A stretch of 36,080 nt of DNA from an uncultured Clostridia bacterium (GTDB lineage Bacteria > Bacillota > Dehalobacteriia > UBA4068): the NCBI GenBank assembly GCA_944390435.1, contig CALXQC010000012.1:1-36080 (forward strand), read 5' to 3'. Shown here piece by piece: positions 2,406 through 20,104 of the stretch; within the stretch, counting starts at the first letter, position 1; each line of letters starts with the position of its first letter. The notes beneath the pieces were generated by a model, which did not search any database, was not told the DNA's origin, and saw nothing but the letters and a program-made list of their open reading frames with translations. The position numbers were made by a program, and so were the translations under genes.

Positions 2406-2438
2406 GCCCCAGCCGCGCTTTTGCTGCACGGCTGGGGC
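2406..2438 (-). promoter_or_regulatory. Strong intercistronic hairpin between the thioredoxin-like ORF end and the CobW-like gene
   Basis: 10-bp perfect stem gccccagccg / cggctggggc with a 13-nt loop. There is no U-tract. The AAGGAG RBS of the next gene follows. Confidence 0.5.
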
Positions 2439-2457
2439 AAGCGGATCAGCGATGAGG

Positions 2458-3816: not shown

Positions 3817-3968
3817 TAACTTTCCTCCCCCCAGTAATGTAGTTAAACCAAGCTTGCATTGTTATTATAGATAGTATCATCATTATAAAGCACCACTGCC
3901 ATTGGTTTATTGTAAAATTGTTATAAAATTTGTACTTTTTTGAATTTTTTATTTCTCGCTTTTTTGCC

Positions 3969-3996
3969 TTGCTAATTAGTAATTATGTGCTATAGT
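3969..3996 (+). promoter_or_regulatory. Putative promoter of the PocR/AraC regulator within a ~250-bp AT-rich divergent control region (3817-4069)
   Basis: TTGCTA (3969-3974), 16-nt spacer with TGc, then TATAGT (3991-3996). The divergent minus-strand promoter was not resolved. Confidence 0.4.
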
Positions 3997-4069
3997 AATC
4001 ATATAGGGGCAATATAAAATAATATATATAAAAGCTCAGATATATTATCGGACTATTGGGGGTAATCTG

Positions 4070-5353: not shown

Positions 5354-5384
5354 CTGCGGCAGCCGCAGCAATTAAATTCCCGCA

Positions 5385-5411
5385 ACTCCCGCTGATAGCG
5401 GGAGTTTTTTC
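5385..5411 (+). terminator. Rho-independent terminator after the regulator gene
   Basis: actcccgc-tgata-gcgggagt followed by T6. Confidence 0.75.
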
Positions 5412-5561
5412 TTGCCCGGCGCTTGTTGACGGGCAGAGCATTTATAGTAAAAAATTTACAAATAAATCAATTTTGTAATAGAAATAAACAGGGGTAATTT
5501 TTAAAATATTTATAATATTCAAAATAGATGCTGCAACTGATAATGACGGAGGTGTAAATCA

Positions 5562-6200
5562 ATGGGTATTTTAGAAGATATTTCCCTGTTGCTGCAAAAG
5601 GGCAAAGCAAAAAAGGTTAAAGAGCTGGTACAGCAGGCTATTGATGAAGGAATTGACGCTAAGGTGATCTTGGATGAGGGCTTGCTGGCCGGCATGAACG
5701 CCGTCGGCGATCAATTCCAGGCCGGCGAGATCTTCGTCCCGGAGGTTCTGGTTGCCGCCCGGGCGATGAATGTCGGTACGGATCTGCTGAAGCCGCTGCT
5801 GCAGGCGGGCAAGAGCGAGGTTCAGGGCAAGGTATGCATCGGCAGCATCAAGGGAGATCTGCATGATATCGGCAAAAACTTGGTGCGGATGATGATGGAG
5901 GGCAAGGGCCTGGAAGTTATCGATCTGGGCAATGACGTCGCTCCGGAACGCTATGTGGATACCGCCGTACAGGAGGGCTGCAATATTATTGCCTGCTCCG
6001 CTTTGCTGACCACCACCATGGGCCAGATGCAGAATGTGGTCAACCTGGCTAAAGAAGCCGGGATCCGCGACAAGGTCTATATCATGGTCGGCGGCGCGCC
6101 GGTTACCGAGGCTTTCTGCGAACAAATCGGCGCTGACAAATACACTAATGACGCCACTGCGGCGGCTGAAGCGGCGGTTGCTTATTGCAAATCGCTGTAA
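5562..6200 (+). CDS. Corrinoid (B12-binding) methyl-carrier protein, MtaC/MtbC/MtqC-like
   Basis: 212 aa. N-terminal helical cap plus Rossmann B12 domain with DxHxxG (GDLHDIGKNLV), SALLTTT and MVGGAP motifs. GGAGG RBS. Confidence 0.9.
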   Translation: MGILEDISLLLQKGKAKKVKELVQQAIDEGIDAKVILDEGLLAGMNAVGDQFQAGEIFVPEVLVAARAMNVGTDLLKPLLQAGKSEVQGKVCIGSIKGDLHDIGKNLVRMMMEGKGLEVIDLGNDVAPERYVDTAVQEGCNIIACSALLTTTMGQMQNVVNLAKEAGIRDKVYIMVGGAPVTEAFCEQIGADKYTNDATAAAEAAVAYCKSL

Positions 6201-6233
6201 CAGACAGTTAGTAGCTGAATGATCGATAAGTTT

Positions 6234-6261
6234 CTGCCCCGCAGCGAGAACTGCGGGGCAG
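6234..6261 (+). promoter_or_regulatory. Strong intercistronic hairpin after the corrinoid protein gene
   Basis: 11-bp perfect stem ctgccccgcag / ctgcggggcag with loop cgagaa. No T-tract follows. The RBS of the next gene lies 15 nt downstream. Confidence 0.5.
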
Positions 6262-6286
6262 GATTGGAATTAGGGGAGGCGGACAG

Positions 6287-6856
6287 ATGCCGGCGGAGCA
6301 AGAATTGATCCAGCAATTAACTGATCTGGCTTTGAGCCTGGGCGCAGATAAGGCCCAGGTGATCCGGGTGGCGGATATAAGCTTCTCGGAGGAATTCCGC
6401 CGGCTGTGCGAGATGAATTCCTGCGGGCTGTACGGCCAGTGCTGGATGTGCCCTCCCGACGTCGGGGAGATCAACGAGCTGATGGCCGAGGCGCAGACCT
6501 TCAGCCGCGCGCTGGTTTATCAAACCATCGGCCGACTGGAAGATTCCTTCGATATTGAGGGTATGCTGGCAGCCGGCGAGCGTCATAATGCTCTGGTAGA
6601 GGAGATACGCCGGCAAAGCGCCGCGATCCGCCTGGCCGAGACGCTGCATCTGGGCTCCGGCGGCTGCTCGATCTGCCCGCGCTGCGCTAAACGGGATCAA
6701 CAGCCTTGCCGCTTTCCCGAGCGGGCGGTGGCGTCGCTGGAAGCCTATGGCGTTAATGTTTATGATTTAGCCAACATAAGCGGCATGAAATATATCAACG
6801 GCGAAAATACTGTGACCTATTTCGGCGCGGTATTGTTCAATTTTCGTTCTGAGTGA
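6287..6856 (+). CDS. DUF2284-type Cys-rich metal-binding protein
   Basis: 189 aa. Motifs CEMNSCGLYGQCWMCPP and CSICPRCAKRDQQPCRFP, typical of DUF2284 proteins that co-occur with corrinoid methyltransferase systems. Confidence 0.7.
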   Translation: MPAEQELIQQLTDLALSLGADKAQVIRVADISFSEEFRRLCEMNSCGLYGQCWMCPPDVGEINELMAEAQTFSRALVYQTIGRLEDSFDIEGMLAAGERHNALVEEIRRQSAAIRLAETLHLGSGGCSICPRCAKRDQQPCRFPERAVASLEAYGVNVYDLANISGMKYINGENTVTYFGAVLFNFRSE

Positions 6857-6870
6857 AAGCTGGGAGGATA

Positions 6871-8436
6871 ATGGCGATCCAGGGAGAGAACGGCTGCCGT
6901 GTTCTGCTGGAGGGGCGCACGGTTCAAGCCCGCTCCGGCCAGACCATCAGCCGGCTGCTGCAGGGGCGGCAGCTGGCGGTAGAGCTGCCCTGCGGCGGAA
7001 ATGGTAAATGCGGCAAGTGCAAGGTTCGGGCCAGCGGCTGCCTTTCGCCGCTGAGCCGGGAAGAGCAGGCGCTGCTCACTCCGGCGGAGATTGCGGCGCA
7101 GATCCGTTTGGCCTGCTGCACTATGATAGAAGGCGATTGCCGTATCGAGCTGATACAGGACAGCGAGCTGGCCAAGATTGCCGTGCATGGCGCCGCCGCT
7201 GTGACGGTGCGGCAGCCGCGCTACCGCCGTTATGGCCTGGCGGTTGATATCGGCACTACTACAGTGGCGATGAAATTATTCGACCGGCAGCGCGAACTGG
7301 GGGATCACTCCGGCCGCAATAGCCAGAGCGTTTTCGGCGCCGATGTCATCACCCGTATTGACCAGGCGCTGCACGGCCGCAGCCGCCAGATTCAGCAAGT
7401 CACTGCCGCCGGCCTTAATGAAATGATCAGCAGCCTCTGCTCAGCCTGCTCGATCGGCTCAGAAGAGATTGATCTGGCGGTGATTACCGGCAATACCGCG
7501 ATGCTGTATCTGCTGACTGGTTCTGATCCGGACTGCCTGGCGCATACGCCGTTTATCGCTGACCGGCTGTTTGGTGAGACAGTGCCGCCGGGGCAGCTGG
7601 GTTTGCAGTTAGCTCCCGCGGCGCAGGTGTATCTCACCCGCTGCCTCTCTGCTTATGTCGGCGGGGACATTGCCTCGGCGATTTTGGCCAGCGGCATTAC
7701 CGCTACGCCGGAGACCGCGCTGCTGGCGGATATCGGCACTAATGGCGAGATGGCGCTGTGGCATCAGCAGCGGCTGCTGTGCTGCTCCACCGCAGCCGGA
7801 CCGGCTTTTGAAGGCGCGGAGATCACGATGGGCATGAACGCTGTTCCCGGCGCTATCGACCAGCTATGGATCGCTGACCAGCAGATTGCCTGCCATGTGA
7901 TCGGCGATATTGCCCCGCACGGTTTATGCGGCAGCGGCATTATCGATGCCGTCAGCGTGCTGAGGGAATTGGAGCTGATCCAGCCGAGCGGCGCTTTTGC
8001 CAAGGAAGATTTGGCCGCGCGGCAGTTGGCTGCTGAGCTGAGCGGACAACCGGCCTGCTGTCTGGCAGAGGGGGTTTATCTCAGCCAGCGCGATATCCGC
8101 CAGGTGCAGCTGGCCAAAAGCGCAATCTGCGCCGGGATGCGAACCCTGGCGGCAGTGGCAGGAATCAGCCTCGATGAGGTGCAGACCCTTTATCTGGCTG
8201 GCGGTTTCGGTAATTATCTCAATATCGCCAGCGCAGTCAAGATCGGCTTGCTGCCGCAGCAGCTGGCGGCAAAAACACGGGTGATCGGCAATGCGGCGCT
8301 GCACGGAGCAGCGCTGGCGCTGACAGACGAGCGTTTTAGCGAGCGGGAATTGCTGTCCTCGCTGCCGGTAGAAGTGGTGGATCTGGCGGCAAACCCGGTA
8401 TTTATGAAGCAGTATATCGGCTGTATGGAGTTTTAG
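6871..8436 (+). CDS. Corrinoid reductive activase (RACo/RamA-like): 2Fe-2S ferredoxin domain plus ASKHA ATPase domain
   Basis: N-terminal CGGNGKCGKCKV...C plant-type ferredoxin motif. ASKHA signatures GLAVDIGTTTV and ADIGTNGE. Start placed at ATG 6871, behind a GGGAGG RBS. The ORF track opens at GTG 6853. Confidence 0.85.
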   Translation: MAIQGENGCRVLLEGRTVQARSGQTISRLLQGRQLAVELPCGGNGKCGKCKVRASGCLSPLSREEQALLTPAEIAAQIRLACCTMIEGDCRIELIQDSELAKIAVHGAAAVTVRQPRYRRYGLAVDIGTTTVAMKLFDRQRELGDHSGRNSQSVFGADVITRIDQALHGRSRQIQQVTAAGLNEMISSLCSACSIGSEEIDLAVITGNTAMLYLLTGSDPDCLAHTPFIADRLFGETVPPGQLGLQLAPAAQVYLTRCLSAYVGGDIASAILASGITATPETALLADIGTNGEMALWHQQRLLCCSTAAGPAFEGAEITMGMNAVPGAIDQLWIADQQIACHVIGDIAPHGLCGSGIIDAVSVLRELELIQPSGAFAKEDLAARQLAAELSGQPACCLAEGVYLSQRDIRQVQLAKSAICAGMRTLAAVAGISLDEVQTLYLAGGFGNYLNIASAVKIGLLPQQLAAKTRVIGNAALHGAALALTDERFSERELLSSLPVEVVDLAANPVFMKQYIGCMEF

Positions 8437-8500
8437 CCGCTGCAATATGTTGCTGACAGTATTGATCAGATAAACAAAATCAAGGTAAAGGAGTGTTTAT

Positions 8501-9499
8501 ATGAACGGATATGAAAGAACAGTAAAGTTTCTCGCTGGGGAAAAGGTCGATCGACCGCCTTTTATGCCGCTGGTGATCGACTGGGTATGTATCCAGGAGG
8601 GGCTGAGCCAGGAAGAATTCGTCTATGATCCGATCAAGAGGGCTCAGGCCTATATTCACTGCTGCGACCAATATAATATCGACTGCATCCTGCCAGACTC
8701 GGATTTCCATGAACAGCTGGAGGATTTCGGTCAAAAACCGGTGCTTAGCGACAGCGGCTACCATGCCGACCCGATCCTCGAGGATCCCGCCGATGTGCAT
8801 CAGCTGCCCAAGCCCACCTTTGAGCCGGGCACGCGCATGGGCAACCGCCTGATCACCCTTCAGGAGGTGCTGAAAGCGCGTAAAGAAGAGAAGTTTATCT
8901 TCGGCATCTGCATCGGCCCGTTTACTGAATACTGCAATGCCCGCGGCATGGAGGACGCCCTCTGCGAGCTGCTGGATGATGAAGACGCGACCATGGACGG
9001 GATTAAGTTCTTCTACGAGAACGGCATGAAATTCATCGAAAAGCAGATGGCGCTGGGCATTAACGGCATCCAAATCGTCGAGCCGAACTGCTCGCTGATT
9101 TCTCCGGCGATGTACGAAGAATTCATTATGCCGCTGCATATCGAGATGGTTAAGCTGATCCAGTCCTATGGCGGCGCATCCCGGCTCCATATCTGCGGCG
9201 ATACCAACCGCCTGCTGCCGTATACTCTGGGCACCGGCACCACGATCTTAGACGTAGACTCCGAAGTCGATATGGCGCTGGCTTACTCCAAACTGGCTGA
9301 TAATCAATATCTGTGGGGAAATCTCAGCCCGGCTGAGGATCTTTATCTGGGCAAGCCCGAAGATCTCTTCCCCAAGGTGAAAAAGGTTTATGACGATACC
9401 CATAACCGCACCATCATTGCTGTCGGCTGCGATGTGCCGCCGCCGACCAGCGTCGAGAATATGATCGCCTTCTATGAGGCGGTGGAAGCGCTGAAATAA
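8501..9499 (+). CDS. URO-D/MtaA-family methylcorrinoid methyltransferase (canonical Zn motif)
   Basis: 332 aa. HxC (RLHICGD) and distal Cys (AVGCDVPPPTSVENM) are intact. AGGAG RBS. Confidence 0.85.
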   Translation: MNGYERTVKFLAGEKVDRPPFMPLVIDWVCIQEGLSQEEFVYDPIKRAQAYIHCCDQYNIDCILPDSDFHEQLEDFGQKPVLSDSGYHADPILEDPADVHQLPKPTFEPGTRMGNRLITLQEVLKARKEEKFIFGICIGPFTEYCNARGMEDALCELLDDEDATMDGIKFFYENGMKFIEKQMALGINGIQIVEPNCSLISPAMYEEFIMPLHIEMVKLIQSYGGASRLHICGDTNRLLPYTLGTGTTILDVDSEVDMALAYSKLADNQYLWGNLSPAEDLYLGKPEDLFPKVKKVYDDTHNRTIIAVGCDVPPPTSVENMIAFYEAVEALK

Positions 9500-10635: not shown

Positions 10636-10998
10636 TCAATCTGCTGCCCGGCAAAGGGCCTCTTCCCATTGCGCCTGGCGGAAGCCGATCAGCACGGTGT
10701 CCCCATCGATCAGCAGCGGCCGTTTGACCAGCATCCCATCACTAGCCAGCAGCTCCAGCTGCTCATCCTCGCTCATTGCGGGCAGCTTATCCTTGAGCTC
10801 CAGGGCGCGGTACTGCATGCCGCTGGTATTGAAGAATTTCTTCAGCGGCTGACCGCTGAGCTGCTGCCAGCTGCGCAGCTCATCCGCACGGGGGCGGTCT
10901 GTTTTAATATCGCGCAGCGTGTAGGCAAGATTTGCCGCATCCAGCCAAGACTTGGCTTTTTGGCAGGTGCTTCATTTAGGGTAGCAGATAAAAAGCAT
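10636..10998 (-). CDS. ArsC/Spx/YffB-family thiol-redox protein with in-frame TGA (UxxC): predicted selenoprotein
   Basis: ATG 10998 sits behind a GGAGG RBS. Translation: MLFICYPK-[TGA 10974-10972]-STCQKAKSWLDAANLAYTLRDIKTDRP...LLASDGMLVKRPLLIDGDTVLIGF. The TGA occupies the first Cys of the family CxxC. The reading frame is continuous with the 60-aa ORF 10636..10818 (363 nt in total). Confidence 0.75.
10933..10974 (-). promoter_or_regulatory. UGA plus SECIS-like hairpin of the ArsC-family gene
   Basis: The mRNA reads UGA AGC ACC UGCC-AAAA-AGCCAA-GUC-UUGGCU-GGAUGC-GGCA. The apical G-U-C loop lies about 21 nt after the UGA and resembles the GGUC apical loop of the E. coli fdhF SECIS. Confidence 0.6.
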
Positions 10999-11063: not shown

Positions 11064-14000
11064 TTACAGCTCGATGACGCCTTCAAAGTCCTTGCTGGCG
11101 TCGCCGGTCATCAGCACGCCGTGTGCGGTGCGCTTGATTACCAGATCTCCGCCCTTTTGTTTGACGAAGATATCTTGATCCATCGGGCATAGCTGCTGTT
11201 CAGTCGCTGCCGCGACCACCGCGCAGGCAGAATCGCCGGAGGCCAGGGTCTCGCCGATGCCGCGTTCCCAGGCGCGCATTCTGATCGTGCTCCAATCAGT
11301 CACCGCGGCGAAGGCCACATGAGCGCGGTTGGGGAAGATGGCGGCGTTTTCCAGCAGCGGGCCGACAGTCTGCATATCGATAGCATCGACATCGGGGACG
11401 AAAATCACGCAGTGCGGATTGCCCATTGACAGACAGGTGATGCGGAAATCATAACCGCCGGTAGAGAAGGGCTGGTCGATAACCGGGCCGGCACGGCGTA
11501 CCGGTACGGAAGAGGCGTTGAAGTCCGGCTGCCCCATATCTACAGTAACGGAATTGACTTCATTTTCCTGGATAAAGAGATCCATTTCGCGGACACGGCC
11601 GCCGGTCTCGATACACATCCGTGTTTTCGGCACCCGTCCGCTCTCGTAGAGATACTTGGCGACGCAGCGGATCGCATTGCCGCCGATTTCATCCGGGCTA
11701 CCGTCGGCGTTGAACTTGCGCATAGCGGCGTCGGCCCTCCATGAGGGCTCGATGAGAATAATATTGTCGGCGCCGATGCCACGGCTGCGGCTGGTCAGGC
11801 GCACGGCAAGGGACTCGGGGTTATCGATATCCTGGTCGAAGCAGTCGAAGCAGATACTGTCGCTGCCGCTGCCGCGCATTTTGACGAAGCGCAGCTCCTG
11901 CTTGCTGTTGGGCAGGCGGGCGATGTCGATCAGCTCCATATTGCGCTGATTATAGCCGCTTTCGATAACATCAGCCAGAACATTGGCGGTATCGATGCTG
12001 GTCAGGCAGGGGATACGGCTGGTGACTGCCTTGCGCCGCATCTGCACGCTGTCGCGGTGCGGCATCTGGCCGGACTCCGAGGTGGAGATGACATAATTGA
12101 TTTTGCCGCTTTCCAGCAGGTCGATGATATCATTTTCGCCTTCGTGAATCTTGCCTACCGAGGTGGTAGTGATACCGTTGCGGTTAAGCAGCTCAGCAGT
12201 GCCGGCGGTGGCGTACATCTCAAAGCCATGATTGAAGAAGCGGCGCGCGGTGGAGACGATCTCCGGTTTGTCACGATCCTGCACGGTGATCAGCATACCG
12301 CCCTTGTTGGTCAGGGTATAGCCGGCGGATAGCAGCGCCTTATACATCGCCTCTTCGATAGTGCGGCCGATGCCCAGCACCTCGCCGGTGGATTTCATTT
12401 CCGGACCGAGCGTGGTATCAACGCCGGCCAGCTTCTCGAAGGAGAAGACCGGCGCCTTGACAGCCTTGCAGGCCGCCTCCCGGTACAAACCAGGAGTATA
12501 TCCCATATCGATCAGCCGTTCTCCCAGCATAGCGCGGGTAGCGATTTCGACGATCGGCAGCCCGGTGACCTTGCTCATATAGGGAACGGTACGCGAGGCG
12601 CGCGGATTGGCCTCGATGATATAAACTTTATTATGATGAATGACAAACTGGATATTGATCAGCCCGTGCGTCGCCAGCGCGATCGCCAGGGTGCGGGTGA
12701 TCTCGCATAGCTGACGGATCACCGGACCGGAAAGATTGCGCGGCGGATACATGGCGATGGAGTCGCCGCTGTGGATGCCGGCCCGCTCGACATGCTCCAT
12801 GATGCCGGGGATCAGCACTTCTTCACCGTCGCAGATGGCGTCGACCTCTACTTCCAGGCCCATTAGATATTTATCGACCAGGATCGGGTTTTCGATCGGG
12901 CTGCCGGAGAGGATGATATCCATATAGCGGTCGATCGCCTCATCGGAGAAGGCGATGCTCATATTCTGGCCGCCTAGCACATAGGAGGGGCGTACCAGCA
13001 CCGGGTATTCCAGATCATGGGCGGCGGCCAGGGCTTCTTCCTTGGTGAATACCGAGTGGCCCTGCGGCCGCTGCACACCCAGGCGGCTTAAAATTTCATC
13101 AAAGCGTTCTCTATCCTCGGCAGTATCGATGGAATCCGCCGAGGTGCCGAGGATGCGGATATTGTTTTCCGCCAGCGTACGTGTCAGCTTGATCGCAGTT
13201 TGGCCGCCGAAAGCCACTACCGTGCCGTAGGGCTGCTCGGTGGCAATGATATCCATCACATCTTCGCCGTACAGCGGTTCAAAATAGAGGCGGTCGGCAG
13301 TATCAAAGTCGGTGGAGACCGTCTCAGGGTTATTATTGACCATCACTACTTCATAGCCGAGTTTTTTCAGCGTACGGACGCAGTGGACGGAAGCATAGTC
13401 GAATTCAATGCCCTGGCCGATGCGGATCGGACCGGAACCAAAGACCAGGATCCGTTTTTTACTGCTTTTTTGCTCCTGGAGAAATTCCAGCGCTTCATTT
13501 TCCGTATCATAGGCGGCATAGAAATAAGGGGTCTCGGCCTTAAACTCGCCGGCGCAGGTATCGACCATCTTATAGACCGCCGGAATATGCTCCGGCAGCT
13601 GCTGGCCGCTTAAGCGGGCGATCGCTTTGTCCGGGAAGCCGGCCACTTTGGCTTGATGATACAGCTCCTGGGTCAGCGGGCTGCCGCTCAGCGCGCGTTC
13701 AATCTCTACCAGGTGGATCAGCTTGCCGAGGAACCATTGGTCGATCATCGTCAGCTCATGGATTTTTTCGCTGCTGACGCCGCGTTTCAAGGCCTCGTAG
13801 ACCATGAACAAACGCTCGTCGGTGCTGGTGCTAAGAGCATTAAGCAGCTCTTCGTCGCTGTATTTGGCGAGCTTAGGCTGTGAGAGGGTATCGAGCGAGA
13901 TCTCCGCGCCGCGCACCGCTTTCATCAGCGCCTGCTCAAATGTGGGCGCGATCGACATCACTTCGCCGGTAGCTTTCATCTGCGTGCCTAGTTTGCGGCT

Positions 14001-15104
14001 GGCATAGACGAATTTATCAAAAGGCCATTTCGGCAGTTTAACAACTACATAATCCAGCGTCGGCTCGAAAAAGGCGGTGGTTTTGCCGGTAACGGCATTG
14101 GCGATCTCATCCAGGCGCAGGCCGACAGCGATCTGCGCCGCGACTTTGGCGATCGGGTAGCCGGTCGCCTTGGAAGCCAGCGCAGAGGAGCGGGAGACAC
14201 GGGGGTTAACCTCGATCACCGCGTACTCAAAGCTTTCCGGATGCAGGGCAAACTGGACATTACAGCCGCCTTCTACCTGCAGTTCTTCAATGATCTGCAG
14301 GGCTGCCGAGCGCAGCATCTGATATTCTGGATTAGCCAGGGTTACTGCCGGCGCGATAACGATAGAATCACCGGTATGAACGCCGACTGGGTCAAAGTTT
14401 TCCATTGAGCAGACGGCGATGCTGTTGCCGGCAGCGTCGCGCATCACTTCGAATTCGATTTCTTTCCAGCCGGCGATGCAGCGCTCTACCAGGATCTGCC
14501 CGATCGGCGATTCCTGAATTCCGCCGTGAGCGATCTCGGTCAGCTCCTCCGGATTGTTGGCGATGCCGCCGCCGGAGCCGCCTAGGGTAAAGGCCGGACG
14601 GACAATCACCGGATAGCCGATAGTCTCGGCGAAATCCAACGCCGCTTGTACTTCAGTGACCACTTCGGAAGGCACGCAGGGCTGCCCCAGCTTTTCCATG
14701 GTTTGCTTGAACAGCAGGCGATCCTCGGCCTTATCGATGGTCTCCGGGCCGGCGCCGAGCAGCTCGACGCCTTGTTCCTTGAGGAAGCCGGAGCGGGCCA
14801 GCTTCATCGAGAGAGTCAGGCCGCTTTGGCCGCCCATAGTAGAAATCAGCCCGTCGGGCTTTTCTTTGATAATGATGCGCTGGAGCACGGTTTCGGTGAG
14901 CGGCTCGATATAGATGCGGTCAGCCATCGCCGTGTCGGTCATGATGGTAGCTGGGTTCGGATTGACCAACACTACCTCCAGCCCTAGGGATTTAAGCGCC
15001 CGGCAGGCCTGAGTGCCTGCATAGTCAAATTCAGCTGCCTGGCCGATGACGATAGGGCCGGAGCCGATCAGCATTACTTTTTTGAGATTTTTATTCAGCG
15101 GCAT
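11064..15104 (-). CDS. carB: Carbamoyl-phosphate synthase large subunit fused to a C-terminal DapF-fold (diaminopimelate epimerase-like) domain that lacks both catalytic Cys
   Basis: 1346 aa, uninterrupted. Residues 1 to ~1068 are a typical CarB (two ATP-grasp halves, GSGPIVIGQAAEFDY / GSGPIRIGQGIEFDY, MGS-like domain). Residues ~1071-1346 align with DapF (FVKMRGSGSD, FNADGSPDEIGGNAIRC, SMGNPHCV, ERGIGETLASGDSAC). Confidence 0.85.
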   Translation of the reverse strand: MPLNKNLKKVMLIGSGPIVIGQAAEFDYAGTQACRALKSLGLEVVLVNPNPATIMTDTAMADRIYIEPLTETVLQRIIIKEKPDGLISTMGGQSGLTLSMKLARSGFLKEQGVELLGAGPETIDKAEDRLLFKQTMEKLGQPCVPSEVVTEVQAALDFAETIGYPVIVRPAFTLGGSGGGIANNPEELTEIAHGGIQESPIGQILVERCIAGWKEIEFEVMRDAAGNSIAVCSMENFDPVGVHTGDSIVIAPAVTLANPEYQMLRSAALQIIEELQVEGGCNVQFALHPESFEYAVIEVNPRVSRSSALASKATGYPIAKVAAQIAVGLRLDEIANAVTGKTTAFFEPTLDYVVVKLPKWPFDKFVYASRKLGTQMKATGEVMSIAPTFEQALMKAVRGAEISLDTLSQPKLAKYSDEELLNALSTSTDERLFMVYEALKRGVSSEKIHELTMIDQWFLGKLIHLVEIERALSGSPLTQELYHQAKVAGFPDKAIARLSGQQLPEHIPAVYKMVDTCAGEFKAETPYFYAAYDTENEALEFLQEQKSSKKRILVFGSGPIRIGQGIEFDYASVHCVRTLKKLGYEVVMVNNNPETVSTDFDTADRLYFEPLYGEDVMDIIATEQPYGTVVAFGGQTAIKLTRTLAENNIRILGTSADSIDTAEDRERFDEILSRLGVQRPQGHSVFTKEEALAAAHDLEYPVLVRPSYVLGGQNMSIAFSDEAIDRYMDIILSGSPIENPILVDKYLMGLEVEVDAICDGEEVLIPGIMEHVERAGIHSGDSIAMYPPRNLSGPVIRQLCEITRTLAIALATHGLINIQFVIHHNKVYIIEANPRASRTVPYMSKVTGLPIVEIATRAMLGERLIDMGYTPGLYREAACKAVKAPVFSFEKLAGVDTTLGPEMKSTGEVLGIGRTIEEAMYKALLSAGYTLTNKGGMLITVQDRDKPEIVSTARRFFNHGFEMYATAGTAELLNRNGITTTSVGKIHEGENDIIDLLESGKINYVISTSESGQMPHRDSVQMRRKAVTSRIPCLTSIDTANVLADVIESGYNQRNMELIDIARLPNSKQELRFVKMRGSGSDSICFDCFDQDIDNPESLAVRLTSRSRGIGADNIILIEPSWRADAAMRKFNADGSPDEIGGNAIRCVAKYLYESGRVPKTRMCIETGGRVREMDLFIQENEVNSVTVDMGQPDFNASSVPVRRAGPVIDQPFSTGGYDFRITCLSMGNPHCVIFVPDVDAIDMQTVGPLLENAAIFPNRAHVAFAAVTDWSTIRMRAWERGIGETLASGDSACAVVAAATEQQLCPMDQDIFVKQKGGDLVIKRTAHGVLMTGDASKDFEGVIEL

Positions 15105-15158: not shown

Positions 15159-16232
15159 CTATTGCTCCAGCATCGCGAGGAAGCGGTCGAAGAGGAAAGT
15201 GGTGTCGAGCGGGCCGCCCCTGGCCTCGGGGTGGAACTGTACGGAGAAGGCCGGCGTATTAAGATAGTCAACGCCCTCGCAGGTGAGGTCATTGATATTT
15301 TCAAAGCGCAGTTTTGCCTGCTCCGGCAGGGATTCCACTTCCACGGCGTAGCCGTGATTCTGGCTGGTAATATAAAGACGCCCGGTTCTGGTATCGCGCA
15401 CCGGCTGATTAGCGCCGCGGTGCCCATAGCGCAATTTAGTGGTCTGCGCTCCCTGAGCCAGCGCCATTAGCTGGTGTCCGAGACAAATACCGAAAACCGG
15501 GATCTCCGCCTCCATAGCCCGGCGGATCTCTTTAATGATTGCCGTATTGACCGCCGGGTCGCCGGGGCCGTTGCTGAGCAAAATACCGTCCGGCTGCTGC
15601 GCGGCGATTGCTTCAAAGCTGCTGCCGGCCGGCATTACCGTCACCCGGCAGTTGCGGTTGATCAATTCGGTGGCCATGCCCTTTTTATAGCCGAAGTCCC
15701 ACAGCACGATGTGCTTATTGCCGCCTTCATTGAAGGTCTGCGGCTGCTTGCAGGTCACATGATAGACGTCGGAACTCAGTTCCTTAAGCGCTAGGGTAGC
15801 GGTGAACTGGCCGAGATCTTCCGGCAGACGGGAGACGATAGCGGCGTTCATGACGCCGTATTCGCGGATGATCTTGGTCAGCGTCCGGGTATCGACCCCC
15901 TCTAGGCCGATAATGCCGGAATTGCGCAAATAGCTGTCCAGATCTCCCTCGCTGCGGAAATTAGAGGGGAGATTGCATTTTTCTGTGACGATATAGGCCG
16001 ACAGCCGTGGAGAGTCACTTTCAAAATCAGCCGGTATCACCCCGTAATTGCCGATCAGCGGAAAGGTCTGCACAACCATCTGCCCGTGATAGCTGGGATC
16101 AGTCAGCGTCTCCAAATATCCGGTCATGGCAGTGGTGAAGACCAGCTCCGCAGTGATGTCTCCTTCGGCACCGAAGCGGCGGCCGGTGAAAACGGTTCCG
16201 TTTTGTAACACAAGATAGGCGGTGTTGTTCAC
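15159..16232 (-). CDS. carA: Carbamoyl-phosphate synthase small (glutaminase) subunit
   Basis: 357 aa. GTG start behind a GGGAG RBS. GATase triad region GICLGHQL, and HGYAV / FHPE motifs. Confidence 0.9.
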   Translation of the reverse strand: MNNTAYLVLQNGTVFTGRRFGAEGDITAELVFTTAMTGYLETLTDPSYHGQMVVQTFPLIGNYGVIPADFESDSPRLSAYIVTEKCNLPSNFRSEGDLDSYLRNSGIIGLEGVDTRTLTKIIREYGVMNAAIVSRLPEDLGQFTATLALKELSSDVYHVTCKQPQTFNEGGNKHIVLWDFGYKKGMATELINRNCRVTVMPAGSSFEAIAAQQPDGILLSNGPGDPAVNTAIIKEIRRAMEAEIPVFGICLGHQLMALAQGAQTTKLRYGHRGANQPVRDTRTGRLYITSQNHGYAVEVESLPEQAKLRFENINDLTCEGVDYLNTPAFSVQFHPEARGGPLDTTFLFDRFLAMLEQ

Positions 16233-16310: not shown

Positions 16311-16338
16311 ATTATACATAAACAGCCCGTCCTGTCAA
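16311..16338 (-). promoter_or_regulatory. Putative carAB promoter
   Basis: On the minus strand: TTGACA (16338-16333), 16 nt, TATAAT (16316-16311). Confidence 0.5.
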
Positions 16339-16620: not shown

Positions 16621-16713
16621 TTGCATACCCGGCGCCGCTGGCGGCCGCCGGCATCTGACAAAGATTTTCCGCAGCTAAGCTGCTGAATAACTTAATTGAA
16701 AGGAGGGGTACTG

Positions 16714-18063
16714 ATGATTGAATTCAGTGACACGAAAAACGTCCTCACCGAGAGTGAGTATAAATATAGTCTCCAGGACGTAGCTGAGCCCAATCTTTAC
16801 CGGGATATGTTTTCGTATTCCGACGTACCCAAATGTGCGTTCAACAACCGCCTGACCCCCCTGGAACCGCCGAGAGAAATCTGGATCACCGATACCACCT
16901 TCCGCGACGGACAGCAGAGCCGCGCGCCCTATACGGTGGATCAGATCGTTACTTTATATAAAATGCTGCATAAGCTTGGCGGACGCAAGGGCAAGATTCG
17001 CCAGTGCGAGTTCTTCCTTTACAGTGACCGCGATAAAGCCGCGCTGTCCCGCTGCCAGGATCTGGGCTATTATTTCCCGGAGATTACCGGCTGGATTCGC
17101 GCTTCCAAAAAAGACTTTCAGCTGGCGAAAAACATGGGCTTGAAAGAATGCGGCATCCTGGTCAGCTGCTCTGATTATCATATTTTCAAGAAGCTGAAGA
17201 AGACCCGCCGCCAGGCGATGGAGGATTATCTGGCGGTTATTTCCGAGGCCCTGGAAGTAGGGATCGTGCCCCGCTGCCATTTCGAGGACATTACCCGCGC
17301 CGATTTTTACGGCTTTGTCATCCCCTTTGCCCTGGAGCTGAACAACCTGATGAAGGAAAGCGGCATCCCGATCAAGATCCGCGCCTGCGACACCATGGGC
17401 TACGGCATTTCTTATCCCGGCGCTTCCCTGCCGCGCAGCGTCCCCGGCATCATCTACGGCCTGCGCAATTACGCTGGCTTCCCCTCGCATCTGATCGAGT
17501 GGCATGGACATAATGATTTTTATAAATCAGTAATCAATTCCGGCACCGCTTGGCTCTACGGGGCGTCTTCGGTCAACTGCTCGCTGCTGGGTATCGGCGA
17601 ACGCACCGGCAATACGCCGCTGGAGGCGATGGTATTTGAATACGCCCAGCTGCGCGGCACTTTAGACGGTATGGAAACTACGGTGATCCGTGATATTGCC
17701 GATTTTTATGAGAAGGATATCGGCTATAAGATTCCGCCGAATACGCCTTTTGTCGGCAGCAATTTCAATATTACTCAGGCTGGTATTCATGCTGACGGTA
17801 TGCTCAAGGACGAGGAGATCTACAATATCTTTGATACTACCGCCCTGCTGAAGAGCCCGCCCGGCGTAGCGATCACCCAAACTTCCGGCCAGGCCGGCAT
17901 CGCCATGTGGCTGTCAAGCTATCTCAAAGAGGATATCGATAAAAACGACCACCGCGTGGTCAAGCTTAAGGAATGGGTCGACGCTCAGTATGACGGCGGC
18001 CGCATCACCACCATCGGTTTTGAAGAACTGGAGCAGGTAGCTATGGGGCTGCATCTTTGCTAA
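16714..18063 (+). CDS. HMGL-family synthase of the Re-citrate synthase / homocitrate synthase type
   Basis: ITDTTFRDGQQ, HGHNDF and other IPMS/homocitrate-synthase-like motifs, ~450 aa, first gene of an aconitase-IDH operon as described for clostridial Re-citrate synthase. ATG 16714 sits behind AAAGGAGGGG. Confidence 0.7.
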   Translation: MIEFSDTKNVLTESEYKYSLQDVAEPNLYRDMFSYSDVPKCAFNNRLTPLEPPREIWITDTTFRDGQQSRAPYTVDQIVTLYKMLHKLGGRKGKIRQCEFFLYSDRDKAALSRCQDLGYYFPEITGWIRASKKDFQLAKNMGLKECGILVSCSDYHIFKKLKKTRRQAMEDYLAVISEALEVGIVPRCHFEDITRADFYGFVIPFALELNNLMKESGIPIKIRACDTMGYGISYPGASLPRSVPGIIYGLRNYAGFPSHLIEWHGHNDFYKSVINSGTAWLYGASSVNCSLLGIGERTGNTPLEAMVFEYAQLRGTLDGMETTVIRDIADFYEKDIGYKIPPNTPFVGSNFNITQAGIHADGMLKDEEIYNIFDTTALLKSPPGVAITQTSGQAGIAMWLSSYLKEDIDKNDHRVVKLKEWVDAQYDGGRITTIGFEELEQVAMGLHLC

Positions 18064-18136
18064 TACCTCCGGCTGCCGCTGCTGCGAGCGCCGGGAAATA
18101 CATCATTAAAATCTGCTGATTGCTAAGGAGATTATC

Positions 18137-20071
18137 ATGAGTCAGAATATCGCGCAAAAAATCATCGCCCGCCATCTGCTGAGCGGGGAAATGAAAGCAG
18201 GAGAAGAGATCTCGCTGCGTATCGACCAGACCTTGACCCAGGACTCGACCGGCACTATGACTTATCTGCAGTTCGAGGCTATGGGTATCGATAAGGTCAA
18301 AACCGATAAATCAGTCGCTTATATCGACCACAATACGCTGCAGGCCGGCTTTGAAAACGCTGACGATCATAAGTATATCCAGACCGTGACCAAGAAGCAC
18401 GGCGTCTATTTCTCCCGTCCCGGCAACGGCATCTGCCATCAGGTGCATCTGGAGCGCTTCGGCAAACCCGGCGCGACCCTGTTGGGCTCGGATAGCCATA
18501 CGCCGACCGGCGGCGGCTTGGGTATGCTGGCGATCGGTGCCGGCGGACTCGACGTCGCGGTGGCGATGGGCGGCGGCCCCTACTATCTGATGATGCCGAA
18601 GATTTGCCGCATTGAGCTGGTGGGCAAATTACAGCCGATGGTTACCGCCAAGGACATTATTCTTGAAGTGCTGCGTCAGCTCAGCGTCAAGGGCGGAGTC
18701 GGCAAGATCATGGAATATGCCGGAGAGGGCGTCAAAACTCTCTCTGTTCCCGAACGCGCCACTATCACCAATATGGGCGCGGAGCTGGGCGCTACTACCT
18801 CGATTTTCCCCAGTGACGAAGTAACCCGCCAGTTCCTGCGCGCTCAGGGCCGCGAGGAGGATTGGCAGGAGGTGGTGGCCGATGCGGACGCCGTCTATGA
18901 CGAAAGCCTGACCATTGATCTTTCGCAGCTGGTGCCGCTGGCAGCGCAGCCGTCCAGCCCGGACAATGTCGCGCCGATCAGCGAGATCGCCGGCATCACC
19001 GTTAACCAGGTGGCGATCGGCAGCTGCACGAATTCCTCTTTTGCTGATATGATGAAGGTCGCCGCCATTCTTGAGGGCAAAACCGTGGCGGAGAATGTCA
19101 GCTTGGTCATCGCGCCCGGCTCCAAACAGGTGCTGTCGATGCTGGCCGCCAATGGGGCGCTGGCCAAGATGGTCGCTGCCGGCGCGCGTATCCTGGAGAG
19201 CGCCTGCGGCCCCTGCATCGGCATGGGCCAGGCTCCGGCTACCGATGCTGTTTCCCTGCGTACCTTTAACCGCAATTTTTACGGCCGCAGCGGCACCGCC
19301 TCGGCCAAGGTTTATCTGGTCAGCCCGGAGACTGCCGCAGTCTCGGCTCTGACCGGCGTGATTACTGATCCGCGCGATTATTCTCCAGTACCGGAGACTT
19401 TGATTCCGGATCATTTCGACTACTGTGATAATATGGTGGTCGCTCCGGCTGAGGACGGCTCGACTGTGGAAGTAGTCCGCGGCCCCAATATTAAGCCTTT
19501 CCCTACCCATCATCCGCTGGCGGAAGAGGTGACTGGCGAGGTGCTGATTAAAACCGGCGATAATATTACCACCGATCATATCATGCCCTCCAATGCCAAG
19601 CTGCTGCCTTATCGTTCCAATATCCCCTATCTGGCGGAATACTGCCTGACCCCCTGCGATCCGGAATTCCCGGCTAAGGCTAAGGCCAAAGGAGGCGGCT
19701 TCATCCTCGGCGGCGATAATTACGGCCAGGGTTCCAGCCGCGAACACGCGGCGCTGGCTCCGCTCTATCTGGGAGTGAAAGCTGTTTTAGCCAAATCCTT
19801 CGCCCGCATCCATGCCGCCAACTTGGTCAATAACGGTATCATCCCGCTGGTTTTTGCCGATGCGGCGGATTATGATAAGATCTCCGAAGGCGACGAGCTG
19901 GTGATCAAGGATGCCCCGGCACAGGTCAAAGCAGCAGTGGCCGGCACGCCTTTCACCGTGACCAATAAGACCCGCGGCTATGATTTCCAGGCGATTGCCA
20001 ATATCTCCGAGCGCCAGGGCGCGATGCTGATCGCCGGCGGCCTGCTCAACTATACCAAGCAGCAGGGCTAA
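18137..20071 (+). CDS. Aconitate hydratase (~640-aa type)
   Basis: 644 aa. Motifs DSHT, IGSCTNS and CGPCIG (Fe-S ligands). Swivel domain with GDNYGQGSSREHAA. Confidence 0.9.
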   Translation: MSQNIAQKIIARHLLSGEMKAGEEISLRIDQTLTQDSTGTMTYLQFEAMGIDKVKTDKSVAYIDHNTLQAGFENADDHKYIQTVTKKHGVYFSRPGNGICHQVHLERFGKPGATLLGSDSHTPTGGGLGMLAIGAGGLDVAVAMGGGPYYLMMPKICRIELVGKLQPMVTAKDIILEVLRQLSVKGGVGKIMEYAGEGVKTLSVPERATITNMGAELGATTSIFPSDEVTRQFLRAQGREEDWQEVVADADAVYDESLTIDLSQLVPLAAQPSSPDNVAPISEIAGITVNQVAIGSCTNSSFADMMKVAAILEGKTVAENVSLVIAPGSKQVLSMLAANGALAKMVAAGARILESACGPCIGMGQAPATDAVSLRTFNRNFYGRSGTASAKVYLVSPETAAVSALTGVITDPRDYSPVPETLIPDHFDYCDNMVVAPAEDGSTVEVVRGPNIKPFPTHHPLAEEVTGEVLIKTGDNITTDHIMPSNAKLLPYRSNIPYLAEYCLTPCDPEFPAKAKAKGGGFILGGDNYGQGSSREHAALAPLYLGVKAVLAKSFARIHAANLVNNGIIPLVFADAADYDKISEGDELVIKDAPAQVKAAVAGTPFTVTNKTRGYDFQAIANISERQGAMLIAGGLLNYTKQQG

Positions 20072-20104
20072 AGCAGCTCAAGAAAATTTAACCGATAAAG
20101 AGGT

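What the first reader, a model, noticed from the sequence alone, without database searches (positions are those of the whole stretch)
11067..11894. carB fused in frame to a DapF-fold domain in which both catalytic cysteines are replaced (pseudo-epimerase)
The 1346-aa ORF is a complete CarB, including the MGS-like allosteric domain, and continues without a stop into ~276 residues that align along their whole length with diaminopimelate epimerase as I recall the E. coli sequence. The matches are FSKMHGLGNDF / FVKMRGSGSDS, FNADGSEVAQCGNGARC / FNADGSPDEIGGNAIRC, SMGNPHCV / SMGNPHCV and ERGAGETQACGSGAC / ERGIGETLASGDSAC. The two acid/base cysteines (Cys73 and Cys217 in E. coli numbering) are Gly (codon 11684-11682, GGC) and Ser (codon 11240-11238, TCC) here, and the GNDF motif is GSDS. 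The fold is conserved but two-base epimerase chemistry is not possible. Inference: the domain has been recruited as an extra ligand-sensing or allosteric module on CPSase, or as an interaction domain. I do not know of a described CarB-DapF fusion.
Basis: partly seen in the sequence, partly recalled or inferred. Interest (0 to 1): 0.75.

Follow-up and report, generated by a model that had tools for sequence, protein, structure and literature searches.

The report
CarB fused to dead DapF domain
The large subunit of carbamoyl-phosphate synthetase in this uncultured Clostridia bacterium carries a C-terminal domain derived from the lysine/cell-wall enzyme diaminopimelate epimerase that has lost both catalytic cysteines yet is still tightly conserved, so it probably works as a non-catalytic sensor or scaffold; the fusion itself is common in Clostridia and already sits, unstudied, in databases.

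Summary
ORF 11064-15104 (-) encodes a complete CarB (residues 1-1050) joined in frame to a full-length DapF-fold domain (1072-1346). The two catalytic cysteines are Gly (GGC 11684-11682) and Ser (TCC 11240-11238). It is not an assembly artefact: a 97%-identical 1346-aa product with the same G/S pair is called on 20 independent contigs. The fusion is not new. All 120 best database hits are CarB-DapF fusions of 1291-1355 aa from many Clostridia, and UniRef auto-names two of them 'Multifunctional fusion protein'. What appears undescribed is this: only 42 of 122 fusions keep both cysteines, the cysteines were lost repeatedly, and the loss is tied to the fused context (80/122 fused vs 3/74 standalone). 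The query's clade of uncultured MAGs is the most derived, with its reacting-centre subsite remodelled (N11S, C73G, C217S, T219D) and its distal L-amino-acid subsite mostly kept. The dead domain is under strong purifying selection (omega 0.01 against the nearest relative, 0.12 against deeper ones, like CarB itself). Best reading: a selected non-catalytic module, most likely a ligand sensor and otherwise a dimerising scaffold. That function is inferred, not shown. Whether a separate dapF exists in the genome could not be determined.

The parts
16311..16338 (-). sigma-70-type promoter upstream of carA (TTGACA, 16 nt spacer, TATAAT)
   Evidence: 12 of 12 consensus match. This is a pattern match only.
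15159..16232 (-). carA (CPSase small, glutaminase subunit), 357 aa, first gene of the two-gene operon
   Evidence: ORF. The orthologous 357-aa gene in L002-L005 carries CPSase_sm_chain and GATase.
11064..15104 (-). carB::dapF* fusion ORF, 1346 aa plus stop
   Evidence: A 97%-identical 1346-aa product is called on 20 contigs.
11955..15104 (-). CarB portion, residues 1-1050: two ATP-grasp units, the oligomerisation domain and the MGS-like allosteric domain
   Evidence: NCBIfam PRK05294 1471 bits and TIGR01369 1416 bits; Pfam domains. Residues aligned to E. coli K954, T974, T977, K993, E783 and D791 are conserved, and E892 is Ala (the residue roles are from memory of the E. coli CPS literature).
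12000..12263 (-). MGS-like allosteric domain, residues 948-1035
   Evidence: Pfam PF02142, E 2.3e-18.
11892..11954 (-). Linker, residues 1051-1071, between the last CarB helix and the DapF-like domain
   Evidence: It lies between the NCBIfam CarB and DapF matches and has the lowest pLDDT in the model, 58-73. In C/C fusions the ancestral DapF start Met survives here ('..DINHMRNEK|MKLHFTKM..').
11067..11891 (-). DapF-fold pseudo-epimerase domain, residues 1072-1346
   Evidence: TIGR00652 219.7 bits; PDB DapF hits to E 4e-51; AF2 pLDDT mostly 87-97 over the domain; Foldseek TMt 0.83-0.91; omega 0.010-0.12.
11862..11864 (-). Ser1081 (AGC) at the Asn11 position, which contacts the amine of the reacting centre in DapF
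   Evidence: Ser in 7 of 7 clade members and Asn in all C/C fusions. Residue role from PMC8225329.
11682..11684 (-). Gly1141 (GGC) at the catalytic Cys73 position
11238..11240 (-). Ser1289 (TCC) at the catalytic Cys217 position
11232..11234 (-). Asp1291 (GAT) at the Ser/Thr219 position, which contacts the carboxylate of the reacting centre in DapF
   Evidence: Asp in 6 of 7 clade members and Thr in 90% of C/C fusions. Residue role from PMC8225329.
11021..11047 (-). Intrinsic-terminator-like hairpin (10-bp stem with 8 G-C pairs, then a T-run) about 17 nt after the stop codon
   Evidence: the sequence is visible.

Best explanation
The last 275 codons of carB encode a domain that descends from the housekeeping diaminopimelate epimerase of the DapL lysine/meso-DAP pathway. 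The fusion to the C-terminus of CarB is old and is shared by many Clostridia. In the query's lineage the domain lost Cys73 first, a state shared with a larger S/C and A/C group. It then had its reacting-centre subsite remodelled (N11S, Y13S/N/G, T219D, G220S) and finally lost Cys217. It can no longer carry out two-base epimerisation, but selection maintains it as a non-catalytic module of carbamoyl-phosphate synthetase. The most likely mechanism is ligand sensing. The pocket keeps the subsite that holds the distal L-alpha-amino-acid end of DAP (N64, N157, E208, R209). The other subsite now carries an acidic residue where the substrate carboxylate used to bind. The domain would therefore bind an L-amino acid with a neutral or cationic tail (for example lysine, ornithine or arginine) rather than DAP. 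DapF closes its two lobes on binding ligand, and this closure would be passed through the short linker to the adjacent MGS-like allosteric domain, or to the oligomeric state, to tune CPSase. Shown here: the fusion, the fold, the loss of the catalytic residues, the recurrence of that loss, and purifying selection. Inferred: ligand binding, the ligand's identity, and any effect on CPSase. The confidence of 0.45 is for the ligand-sensor mechanism. The broader claim, a selected non-catalytic module of some kind, I hold at about 0.8.
For: Fusion and fold. Not an artefact. Descent from a real DapF: a genuine standalone C/C dapF (P0051, 301 bits on TIGR00652) sits after the GS and ANTAR genes next to a bona fide dapL (TIGR03542, 535.6 bits). 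A C/C fusion locus has GS-ANTAR-carA-carB::dapF in the equivalent place, and the fusion linker retains the DapF start Met. Loss of catalysis: Gly and Ser at the Cys73 and Cys217 positions; the C73A/C217A mutant is inactive (PMC6061791). Within the clade the two positions vary (G/S/N and S/G/C), as expected once chemistry is no longer selected. Selection: window vs L004 is 83% identical in DNA but differs at only 8 of 275 tail residues, with tail dN 0.017, dS 1.76 and omega 0.010 (CarB 0.017). Against deeper relatives tail omega is 0.12 and CarB 0.09. At matched CarB divergence the Cys-less tails are only about 5-6 identity points less conserved than C/C tails. Evidence for ligand binding rather than a pure scaffold: in the 29-member S/A-S/T clade almost every DAP-contact residue stays invariant despite loss of both cysteines. 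In the query clade the 33 shifted positions include the reacting-centre contacts and the residues flanking Cys73 (positions 69-72), the replacement residues are themselves conserved (S11 7/7, D219 6/7, S220 6/7), and the distal subsite is kept (residue roles from PMC8225329). The canonical CarB effector-site residues are intact, so the domain is an addition and not a replacement.
Against: No binding or kinetic data exist. The conserved pocket residues could be kept for structural reasons alone. Within the clade one member (P0273) has E208A and G218D, and N190 is His in 4 of 7, so the distal subsite is not perfectly fixed. The AF2 model gives no reliable interface between the MGS and DapF-like domains (pTM 0.69, linker pLDDT 58-73). 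I could not show that the genome has another epimerase, so a residual or unusual catalytic role is not formally excluded. dS is near saturation and GC3 differs (0.71 vs 0.56), so the omega values are approximate.
Confidence: 0.45

Rival explanations
1. Structural or oligomerisation module only. The DapF-derived domain no longer binds any small molecule and is kept because it dimerises, as DapF does, or because it has become needed for CarB folding and assembly. It would be entrenched after another enzyme took over epimerisation.
For: E. coli DapF is a tight dimer (Kd 22 nM) that depends on Tyr268 (PMC6061791). The equivalent position is a conserved Phe in 'KDFEG' in all clade members. Asp at position 219, and at 218 in two members, could cap the helix N-terminus in place of the substrate carboxylate. 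Fusion length is remarkably constant at 1335-1355 aa, which suggests a fixed geometry. Purifying selection is spread over the whole domain.
Against: A scaffold would not need the polar pocket residues. Yet almost all DAP contacts are invariant in the S/A clade, and the distal subsite is kept in the query clade.
Confidence: 0.25
2. Neo-enzyme. The remodelled pocket catalyses a different, one-base or base-free reaction on a DAP-like or other amino-acid substrate, as in other members of the DapF/PhzF/proline-racemase superfamily.
For: Foldseek recovers superfamily members that use different chemistry on the same fold: PhzF, trans-3-hydroxy-L-proline dehydratase and methylitaconate isomerase. The clade-specific replacement residues are conserved, and selection is strong.
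Against: No candidate catalytic residue is fixed at either former cysteine position within the clade (G/S/N and S/G/C). There is no genomic context that points to a substrate, only carA upstream and a terminator downstream.
Confidence: 0.12
3. Still a diaminopimelate epimerase that uses Ser1289 and another base or water, so the protein is a true bifunctional CarB/DapF.
For: The tail scores above the curated DapF equivalog cutoff (219.7 vs 114.65 bits). C73S and C217S single mutants were worth crystallising (2q9h and 2q9j) and, from memory of the H. influenzae work, retain some activity. RefSeq already names A/C tails 'diaminopimelate epimerase'.
Against: Position 73 is Gly, which has no side chain. 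N11, which holds the reacting amine, is Ser. T219 is Asp, and G218 is Asp in two relatives, at the site that binds the reacting-centre carboxylate. The C73A/C217A double mutant is dead.
Confidence: 0.05
4. Decaying relic. The domain is a functionless passenger on its way to deletion, or the fusion is an assembly or annotation artefact.
For: Catalytic residues are lost, and 33 of the 136 positions conserved in C/C fusions have changed.
Against: Omega is 0.01-0.12, similar to CarB itself, and only 8 conservative substitutions separate the window's tail from L004's despite 17% DNA divergence. The ORF is intact in at least 4 of the clade's 5 species (a fifth is cut by the contig end) and on 20 contigs. 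The model has high pLDDT.
Confidence: 0.03

Closest known systems
CarB-DapF 'Multifunctional fusion protein' of Clostridia (e.g. UniRef100_A0A1W2CRZ2 Papillibacter cinnamivorans, A0A136WI45 Anaerotignum neopropionicum; RefSeq 'carbamoyl-phosphate synthase large subunit' of about 1345 aa)
   Same: It has the same architecture, length, linker and carA-carB operon. Identity to the query is 63-97% overall.
   Different: About a third of these proteins keep both catalytic cysteines and all DAP contacts. The query clade has lost both cysteines and several reacting-centre contacts. I found no experimental or descriptive paper on any of them.
Diaminopimelate epimerase DapF (EC 5.1.1.7; TIGR00652, PF01678; structures 2otn, 4ijz, 1gqz, 9mro)
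   Same: It shares the fold, full-length alignment at 31-37% identity, and the conserved residues G74, N75, N64, N157, H159, E208, R209 and G218.
   Different: Cys73 is Gly, Cys217 is Ser, N11 is Ser, S/T219 is Asp and N190 is His. The domain is covalently attached to CarB.
E. coli DapF as a non-catalytic activator of RppH (PMC4227774, PMC6061791)
   Same: It is a precedent for a DapF fold regulating another enzyme purely by protein-protein contact.
   Different: That DapF is a free, catalytically active protein acting on an RNA pyrophosphohydrolase. Here the domain is fused, catalytically dead, and the partner is CPSase.
Superfamily members that changed chemistry by replacing a catalytic Cys (trans-3-hydroxy-L-proline dehydratase, PhzF)
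   Same: They share the two-lobed fold and the loss of one or both thiols (Foldseek hits).
   Different: Those enzymes have a fixed alternative catalytic residue. The query clade shows none.
MGS-like allosteric domain of CarB (binds IMP/UMP and, at its interface, ornithine)
   Same: It too is a C-terminal add-on derived from an enzyme fold that serves CPSase as a regulatory ligand-binding domain. This is established knowledge of E. coli CPS.
   Different: It is a different fold. It is still present and apparently intact in this protein, so the DapF-like domain would be a second, additional regulatory layer.

Membership tests
CarB (carbamoyl-phosphate synthase large subunit) | Full-length match to the curated equivalog models | tested here: met
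   PRK05294 1471 bits (cutoff 599) and TIGR01369 1416 bits (cutoff 1027), residues 1-1050.
CarB (carbamoyl-phosphate synthase large subunit) | Two ATP-grasp units, the oligomerisation domain and the MGS-like allosteric domain | tested here: met
   Pfam CPSase_L_D1 and D2 (two stretches each), CPSase_L_D3 and MGS.
CarB (carbamoyl-phosphate synthase large subunit) | Adjacent carA encoding the glutaminase subunit | tested here: met
   A 357-aa ORF lies 54 nt upstream. Its orthologue in L002-L005 carries CPSase_sm_chain and GATase.
DapF (diaminopimelate epimerase, EC 5.1.1.7) | Sequence membership (TIGR00652 / PF01678) | tested here: met
   219.7 bits against a cutoff of 114.65; PF01678 twice, E about 1e-44.
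DapF (diaminopimelate epimerase, EC 5.1.1.7) | Two-lobed pseudo-symmetric DapF fold | tested here: met
   AF2 pLDDT is mostly 87-97 over the domain. Foldseek gives TMt 0.83-0.91 to DapF structures, with rmsd 1.9 A to 9mro_A.
DapF (diaminopimelate epimerase, EC 5.1.1.7) | Catalytic thiol Cys73 | tested here: not met
   Gly1141, codon GGC 11684-11682.
DapF (diaminopimelate epimerase, EC 5.1.1.7) | Catalytic thiol Cys217 | tested here: not met
   Ser1289, codon TCC 11240-11238.
DapF (diaminopimelate epimerase, EC 5.1.1.7) | Reacting-centre contacts N11, G74, N75, G218 and S/T219 | tested here: not met
   N11 is Ser and S/T219 is Asp, while G74, N75 and G218 are kept (residue roles from PMC8225329).
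DapF (diaminopimelate epimerase, EC 5.1.1.7) | Distal-site contacts N64, N157, N190, E208 and R209 | tested here: inconclusive
   N64, N157, E208 and R209 are kept, and N190 is His.
DapF (diaminopimelate epimerase, EC 5.1.1.7) | LL-DAP to meso-DAP epimerase activity | not testable with these tools
   It needs an enzyme assay or complementation. The C73A/C217A E. coli mutant is inactive (PMC6061791).
CarB-DapF fusion family of Clostridia | One ORF of about 1335-1355 aa: CarB, a short linker, then a full DapF domain, preceded by carA | tested here: met
   1346 aa. All 120 best hits share the architecture (119 of them 1335-1355 aa, one 1291 aa) at 63-97% identity. carA lies upstream in every locus examined.
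Pseudoenzyme domain (a homologue of an enzyme that lacks catalytic residues but is retained by selection) | Catalytic residues absent | tested here: met
Pseudoenzyme domain (a homologue of an enzyme that lacks catalytic residues but is retained by selection) | Purifying selection after the loss of the catalytic residues | tested here: met
   Tail omega is 0.010 between two G/S members and 0.08-0.19 among clade members. Only 8 of 275 residues differ at 83% DNA identity.
Pseudoenzyme domain (a homologue of an enzyme that lacks catalytic residues but is retained by selection) | A separate active enzyme, or a bypass, supplies the lost activity in the same genome | not tested
   There is no second dapF in the 36-kb window or within 10 kb in relatives.

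The most novel reading that the evidence does not exclude
The DapF domain fused to CarB across Clostridia is a second allosteric sensor of carbamoyl-phosphate synthetase, and not merely a passenger enzyme. In lineages that keep the DAP contacts but have lost the thiols, such as Dehalobacter and Syntrophomonas, it would sense LL- or meso-DAP. In the query clade it has been re-tuned, through an acidic residue in the former carboxylate subsite, to a basic L-amino acid such as lysine, ornithine or arginine. That would link arginine and pyrimidine precursor supply to lysine or cell-wall status. It would be the first natural DapF pseudoenzyme family and a new class of CPSase regulatory domain. The repeated, fusion-specific loss of the catalytic cysteines would be the evolutionary signature of that second function.
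Probability: 0.33. Interest if true: 0.7.

Novelty: new variant of a known kind. Interest (0 to 1): 0.55.

Why it matters
There are three reasons. First, CPSase allostery is a textbook system, and a conserved extra C-terminal domain present in a large share of Clostridia has apparently never been examined. If it binds a metabolite it adds a regulatory input to arginine and pyrimidine synthesis in gut and digester anaerobes. Second, the family is a clean natural series for studying how an enzyme domain becomes a pseudoenzyme after fusion: C/C, then x/C, then x/x, with at least three clearly separate losses. Third, there is a practical annotation problem. The dead tails still pass the curated DapF equivalog cutoff, and RefSeq names some of them 'diaminopimelate epimerase'. 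Conversely, many standalone DapFs are named 'carbamoyl-phosphate synthase large subunit'. Metabolic reconstructions of lysine and DAP prototrophy in Clostridia can therefore be wrong in both directions.

Tried and rejected
my first residue table used 'mafft --add --keeplength' and misaligned the E. coli reference, so it reported N/A at the cysteine positions for all sequences. I discarded it and redid the table with L-INS-i on extracted tails.

the query's exact product is not in the contig index, so I used the 97%-identical P0270 instead.

Same-genome second dapF. The single genome-contig scan generated very specific patterns and returned only the query clade plus unrelated DapFs. Cluster look-ups gave no assembly-level accessions. 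Literature and supplement searches gave nothing. Matching 'longest contig' lengths between the fused and standalone lists found no shared contig. This question is unresolved.

the exhaustive 50%-cluster search cannot count fusions, because CarB conservation collapses them into a few clusters.

the apparently separate DapF-like genes P0001 and P0023 turned out to be split calls from frameshifted or noisy assemblies of fusions. I did not use them as evidence for standalone Cys-less DapFs.

a single origin of the fusion could not be shown, because standalone C/C DapFs nest among the fused tails in an NJ tree. That fits fission and fusion, as the GS-ANTAR synteny suggests, or weak resolution.

there is no Rfam element in the window, so no PyrR site, T-box or riboswitch leader for the operon.

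the putative SECIS after the in-frame TGA of the neighbouring ArsC-family gene does not fold better than shuffles.
Full report
**1. The observation**

The window carries a 1346-codon ORF on the minus strand, 11064-15104.
- Pfam finds the complete CarB set: CPSase_L_D1 and D2 twice, CPSase_L_D3, and MGS at residues 948-1035. It also finds two DAP_epimerase repeats reaching residue 1337.
- NCBIfam places the CarB equivalog PRK05294 on residues 1-1050 (1471 bits, cutoff 599). It places the DapF equivalog TIGR00652 on residues 1072-1344 (219.7 bits for the tail alone, cutoff 114.65).
- HMMER alignments to solved DapF structures (2otn, 4ijz, 6d13 and others, E 4e-51 to 1e-38) run the full length of the domain. 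They put Gly1141 opposite Cys73, Ser1289 opposite Cys217, and GSDS opposite GNDF.
- An AlphaFold2 model of residues 940-1346 is confident over the DapF-like part (pLDDT mostly 87-97). Foldseek puts DapF structures first, with TM-scores of 0.83-0.91 normalised to the target. The best superposition is on a ligand-bound closed form, 9mro_A, at rmsd 1.9 A.

**2. Not an artefact**

- A 97%-identical 1346-aa product (P0270) with the same G/S pair is called on 20 independently assembled contigs. These come from ENA and Logan assemblies and from NCBI MAG GCA_944393575.1.
- The ORF is uninterrupted in more diverged species (L006 and L010).
- A perfect-consensus promoter precedes carA, and a strong terminator follows the fusion's stop codon. 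So carA-carB::dapF* is a self-contained two-gene operon.
- No Rfam element is present in the window.

**3. The fusion is common and already in databases**

- A search with the full-length protein returned 120 clusters, all with the CarB-DapF architecture, at 63-97% identity (119 of them 1335-1355 aa and one 1291 aa).
- Named members include Anaerotignum, Papillibacter cinnamivorans, Dehalobacter sp. DCM, Syntrophomonas, Christensenellales, Oscillospiraceae and Ca. Avimonas.
- UniRef auto-names the P. cinnamivorans and A. neopropionicum proteins 'Multifunctional fusion protein'. RefSeq calls them 'carbamoyl-phosphate synthase large subunit'.
- I found no paper that describes the fusion or a DapF pseudoenzyme.
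- The query's own clade comprises five GTDB species. All are uncultured Clostridia or Bacillota MAGs from gut and digester samples.

**4. State of the catalytic site across the family**

I aligned the tails of 122 full-length fusions with E. coli DapF. States are written as residue at position 73 / residue at position 217.

| State (73/217) | Number of fusions |
|---|---|
| C/C | 42 |
| S/A | 27 |
| S/C | 17 |
| A/C | 15 |
| G/C | 11 |
| G/S (query, P0270, P0272, P0274) | 4 |
| S/T | 2 |
| G/G, S/S, N/C, A/S | 1 each |

- On an NJ tree of the CarB part alone, parsimony gives about 9 losses of Cys73 and about 4 of Cys217.
- The count is rough, but at least three separate groups are clear. One is the monophyletic S/A-S/T clade with Dehalobacter and Syntrophomonas. 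The second is a large group that lacks Cys73 and contains the query clade. The third is the G/C, A/C and S/C members scattered among the C/C sequences.
- The loss is tied to the fused context. 80 of 122 fusions are non-C/C, against 3 of 74 apparently standalone DapFs (Fisher p = 1e-19).
- Those three exceptions begin with the fusion's linker sequence, so they are probably truncated gene calls. One nominally standalone C/C protein, P0023, is demonstrably a split call from a frameshifted fusion.

**5. Where the fused domain came from**

- A genuine standalone dapF (P0051) keeps both cysteines, scores 301 bits on TIGR00652 and is 70% identical to C/C fused tails. It lies directly after glutamine synthetase and an ANTAR regulator, and is followed by nadE and a bona fide dapL (TIGR03542, 535.6 bits, cutoff 364.7).
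- In a C/C fusion locus the same GS-ANTAR pair is followed by carA-carB::dapF.
- The fusion linker still contains the DapF start methionine ('..DINHMRNEK|MKLHFTKM..').
- The fused domain therefore descends from the housekeeping epimerase of the DapL pathway. The C/C fusions are most simply read as bifunctional enzymes.
- In the tail tree the standalone and fused forms interleave. That fits fusion and fission events, or limited resolution.

**6. What changed in the query clade**

- 136 tail positions are at least 90% conserved in C/C fusions. About 100 of them are retained in the query clade, and 33 are changed in at least 5 of its 7 members.
- PMC8225329, summarising Pillai et al. 2006, gives the contact roles. 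G74, N75, G218 and S219 hold the carboxylate of the reacting centre, and N11 holds its amine. Q44 and E208 hold the distal amine. N64, N157, N190 and R209 hold the distal carboxylate.
- The reacting-centre subsite is remodelled: N11S (7/7), Y13S/N/G, position 44 changed, E69P, G70D/E, M72I, C73G/S/N, C217S/G/C, T219D (6/7) and G220S (6/7). G218 is also Asp in two members.
- The distal subsite is largely kept: N64, N157, H159 and R209 in all seven members and E208 in six. N190 is His in four.
- The former cysteine positions now vary, while several new residues are fixed. That pattern indicates loss of selection for chemistry and gain of selection for something else.
- P0275 still has Cys217 but already has S11 and D219. 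The order was therefore Cys73 lost first, then the pocket remodelled, then Cys217 lost.
- In the S/A clade nearly every DAP contact is invariant (N11, N64, G74, N75, N157, H159, N190, E208, R209 and G218 at 100%) although both thiols are gone. That is hard to explain unless the pocket still binds DAP.

**7. Selection**

| Comparison | Tail dN | Tail dS | Tail omega | CarB omega |
|---|---|---|---|---|
| Window vs L004 (both G/S) | 0.017 | 1.76 | 0.010 | 0.017 |
| Window vs L006 | 0.188 | 1.54 | 0.12 | 0.088 |
| Window vs L010 | 0.219 | 1.88 | 0.117 | 0.087 |

- The window and L004 genes are 83.2% identical in DNA. They differ at 8 of 275 tail residues, and all eight changes are conservative.
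- dS is near saturation and GC3 differs (0.71 vs 0.56), so the ratios are approximate. The qualitative result is robust.
- At matched CarB divergence, Cys-less tails are only about 5-6 identity points less conserved than C/C tails.
- A decaying relic is excluded.

**8. Mechanism**

What is shown:
- This is a real fusion to a DapF-fold domain that lacks both catalytic thiols.
- An E. coli C73A/C217A mutant has no detectable activity (PMC6061791).
- The domain is maintained by selection.
- The residues of CarB's nucleotide effector site, as I recall them from the E. coli CPS literature (K954, T974, T977, K993), are conserved in the alignment. E783 and D791 of the ornithine site are also kept, and E892 is Ala. 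So the DapF-like domain is an addition to the allosteric domain and not a replacement for it.

What is inferred:
- My preferred reading, at about 0.45, is a ligand-sensing module. The retained distal subsite would hold an L-alpha-amino-acid head group.
- The acidified former carboxylate subsite would favour a neutral or cationic tail. Lysine is exactly meso-DAP minus that carboxylate, and ornithine and arginine are the pathway-relevant alternatives.
- DapF's known open-to-closed lobe movement would then be passed through the linker of about 20 residues to the MGS-like allosteric domain, or to the oligomeric state.
- The main rival, at about 0.25, is a purely structural or dimerising role. E. 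coli DapF is a tight dimer that depends on Tyr268, and the equivalent position here is a conserved Phe.
- The remaining alternatives are a new catalytic activity (0.12), residual epimerase activity (0.05) and a relic or artefact (0.03).

**9. What could not be settled**

- I could not determine whether the same genome has a separate active dapF, DapF2 or Ddh.
- There is none in the window or within 10 kb in related loci.
- The question matters because DapF-independent lysine routes are common in gut bacteria. The Ddh variant is present in 643 of 2856 gut genomes, and DapF2 is a non-homologous replacement (PMC9026213; GapMind 2026 preprint).

**10. Verdict**

'Pseudo-epimerase' holds. The ligand-sensor or interaction role is plausible but untested. 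The implied novelty of the fusion does not hold.
- The new element is the recurrent, fusion-specific, selected loss of DapF catalysis, of which this clade is the most derived example. I rate it a new variant of a known kind, with interest 0.55.

Noticed in passing
window 10636-10998 (-); in-frame TGA at 10972-10974: Directly downstream of the fusion's terminator lies a 119-codon ArsC-family ORF (PF03960, E 2.7e-19 with the TGA read as Cys). It has an RBS and ATG and reads 'MLFICYPK-TGA-STCQKAK...'. The in-frame TGA sits at the first Cys of the CxxC motif, which makes it a candidate selenocysteine (UxxC) protein. The TGA, the frame and about 35 nt after it are conserved in L004, although the protein has diverged. 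Gene callers truncate the gene to 89 aa. The next gene is a TusA+DsrE (YedF-like) fusion. The putative SECIS does not fold better than shuffles (z = -0.44).
   Followed up: partly
database proteins P0051, P0071, P0084 and others; P0002, P0074, P0088: Annotation errors propagate in both directions because of the fusion. Many genuine standalone DapFs of about 279 aa are named 'carbamoyl-phosphate synthase large subunit' or 'carB' by JGI and NCBI submitters. MGS+DapF fragments of fusions are named 'diaminopimelate epimerase, partial'.
   Followed up: partly
The 272-aa entry starts at an internal Met of the tail ('MRGSGNDY...') and lacks Cys73 (A/C). A probably inactive domain is thus being counted as the organism's DapF.
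   Followed up: partly
L034-L036 (7001-9789) vs L033 (6897-14041): A standalone C/C dapF sits in a GS-ANTAR-dapF-nadE-dapL arrangement, while a C/C fusion sits in GS-ANTAR-carA-carB::dapF. Fused and unfused forms occupy the same nitrogen-assimilation neighbourhood, which points to fusion or fission by gain or loss of carAB at that site.
   Followed up: partly
window 16696-21817 (+), divergent from carA: This is a cluster of an HMGL-like (citrate or homocitrate synthase-like) gene, aconitase, isocitrate dehydrogenase and a GntR/FCD regulator. It forms an oxidative branch to 2-oxoglutarate next to the CPSase operon. The arrangement is conserved in L002-L005.
   Followed up: no
window 1468-9499: This is a corrinoid-dependent methyltransferase cluster: two URO-D/MtaA-like genes, a B12-binding protein, DUF2284, a RACo-type reductive activase with a Fer2 domain, a PocR-AraC regulator and CobW. 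The window has the RACo gene (6853-8436), which is not called in the syntenic L002-L005 loci.
   Followed up: no
window 11064-15104 vs L004 10001-14041: The two genes encode 97%-identical proteins but are only 83% identical in DNA. GC3 is 0.71 in the window and 0.56 in L004, a marked shift in synonymous composition between close relatives.
   Followed up: partly
L001 5845-10993; L037 3-1543; L038 2-2022: In some assemblies carA, carB and the tail are split into several ORFs by frameshifts. L001 is a long-read contig with many broken genes, and L038 contains a run of X. These splits create spurious 'standalone' Cys-less DapF entries in protein databases.
   Followed up: yes
proteins P0156, P0165, P0179 (about 690 aa) and P0175 (1046 aa): These are other proteins with a C-terminal DapF domain attached to unrelated N-terminal regions of about 400 and 750 residues. 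They suggest that DapF is fused to other partners as well.
   Followed up: no
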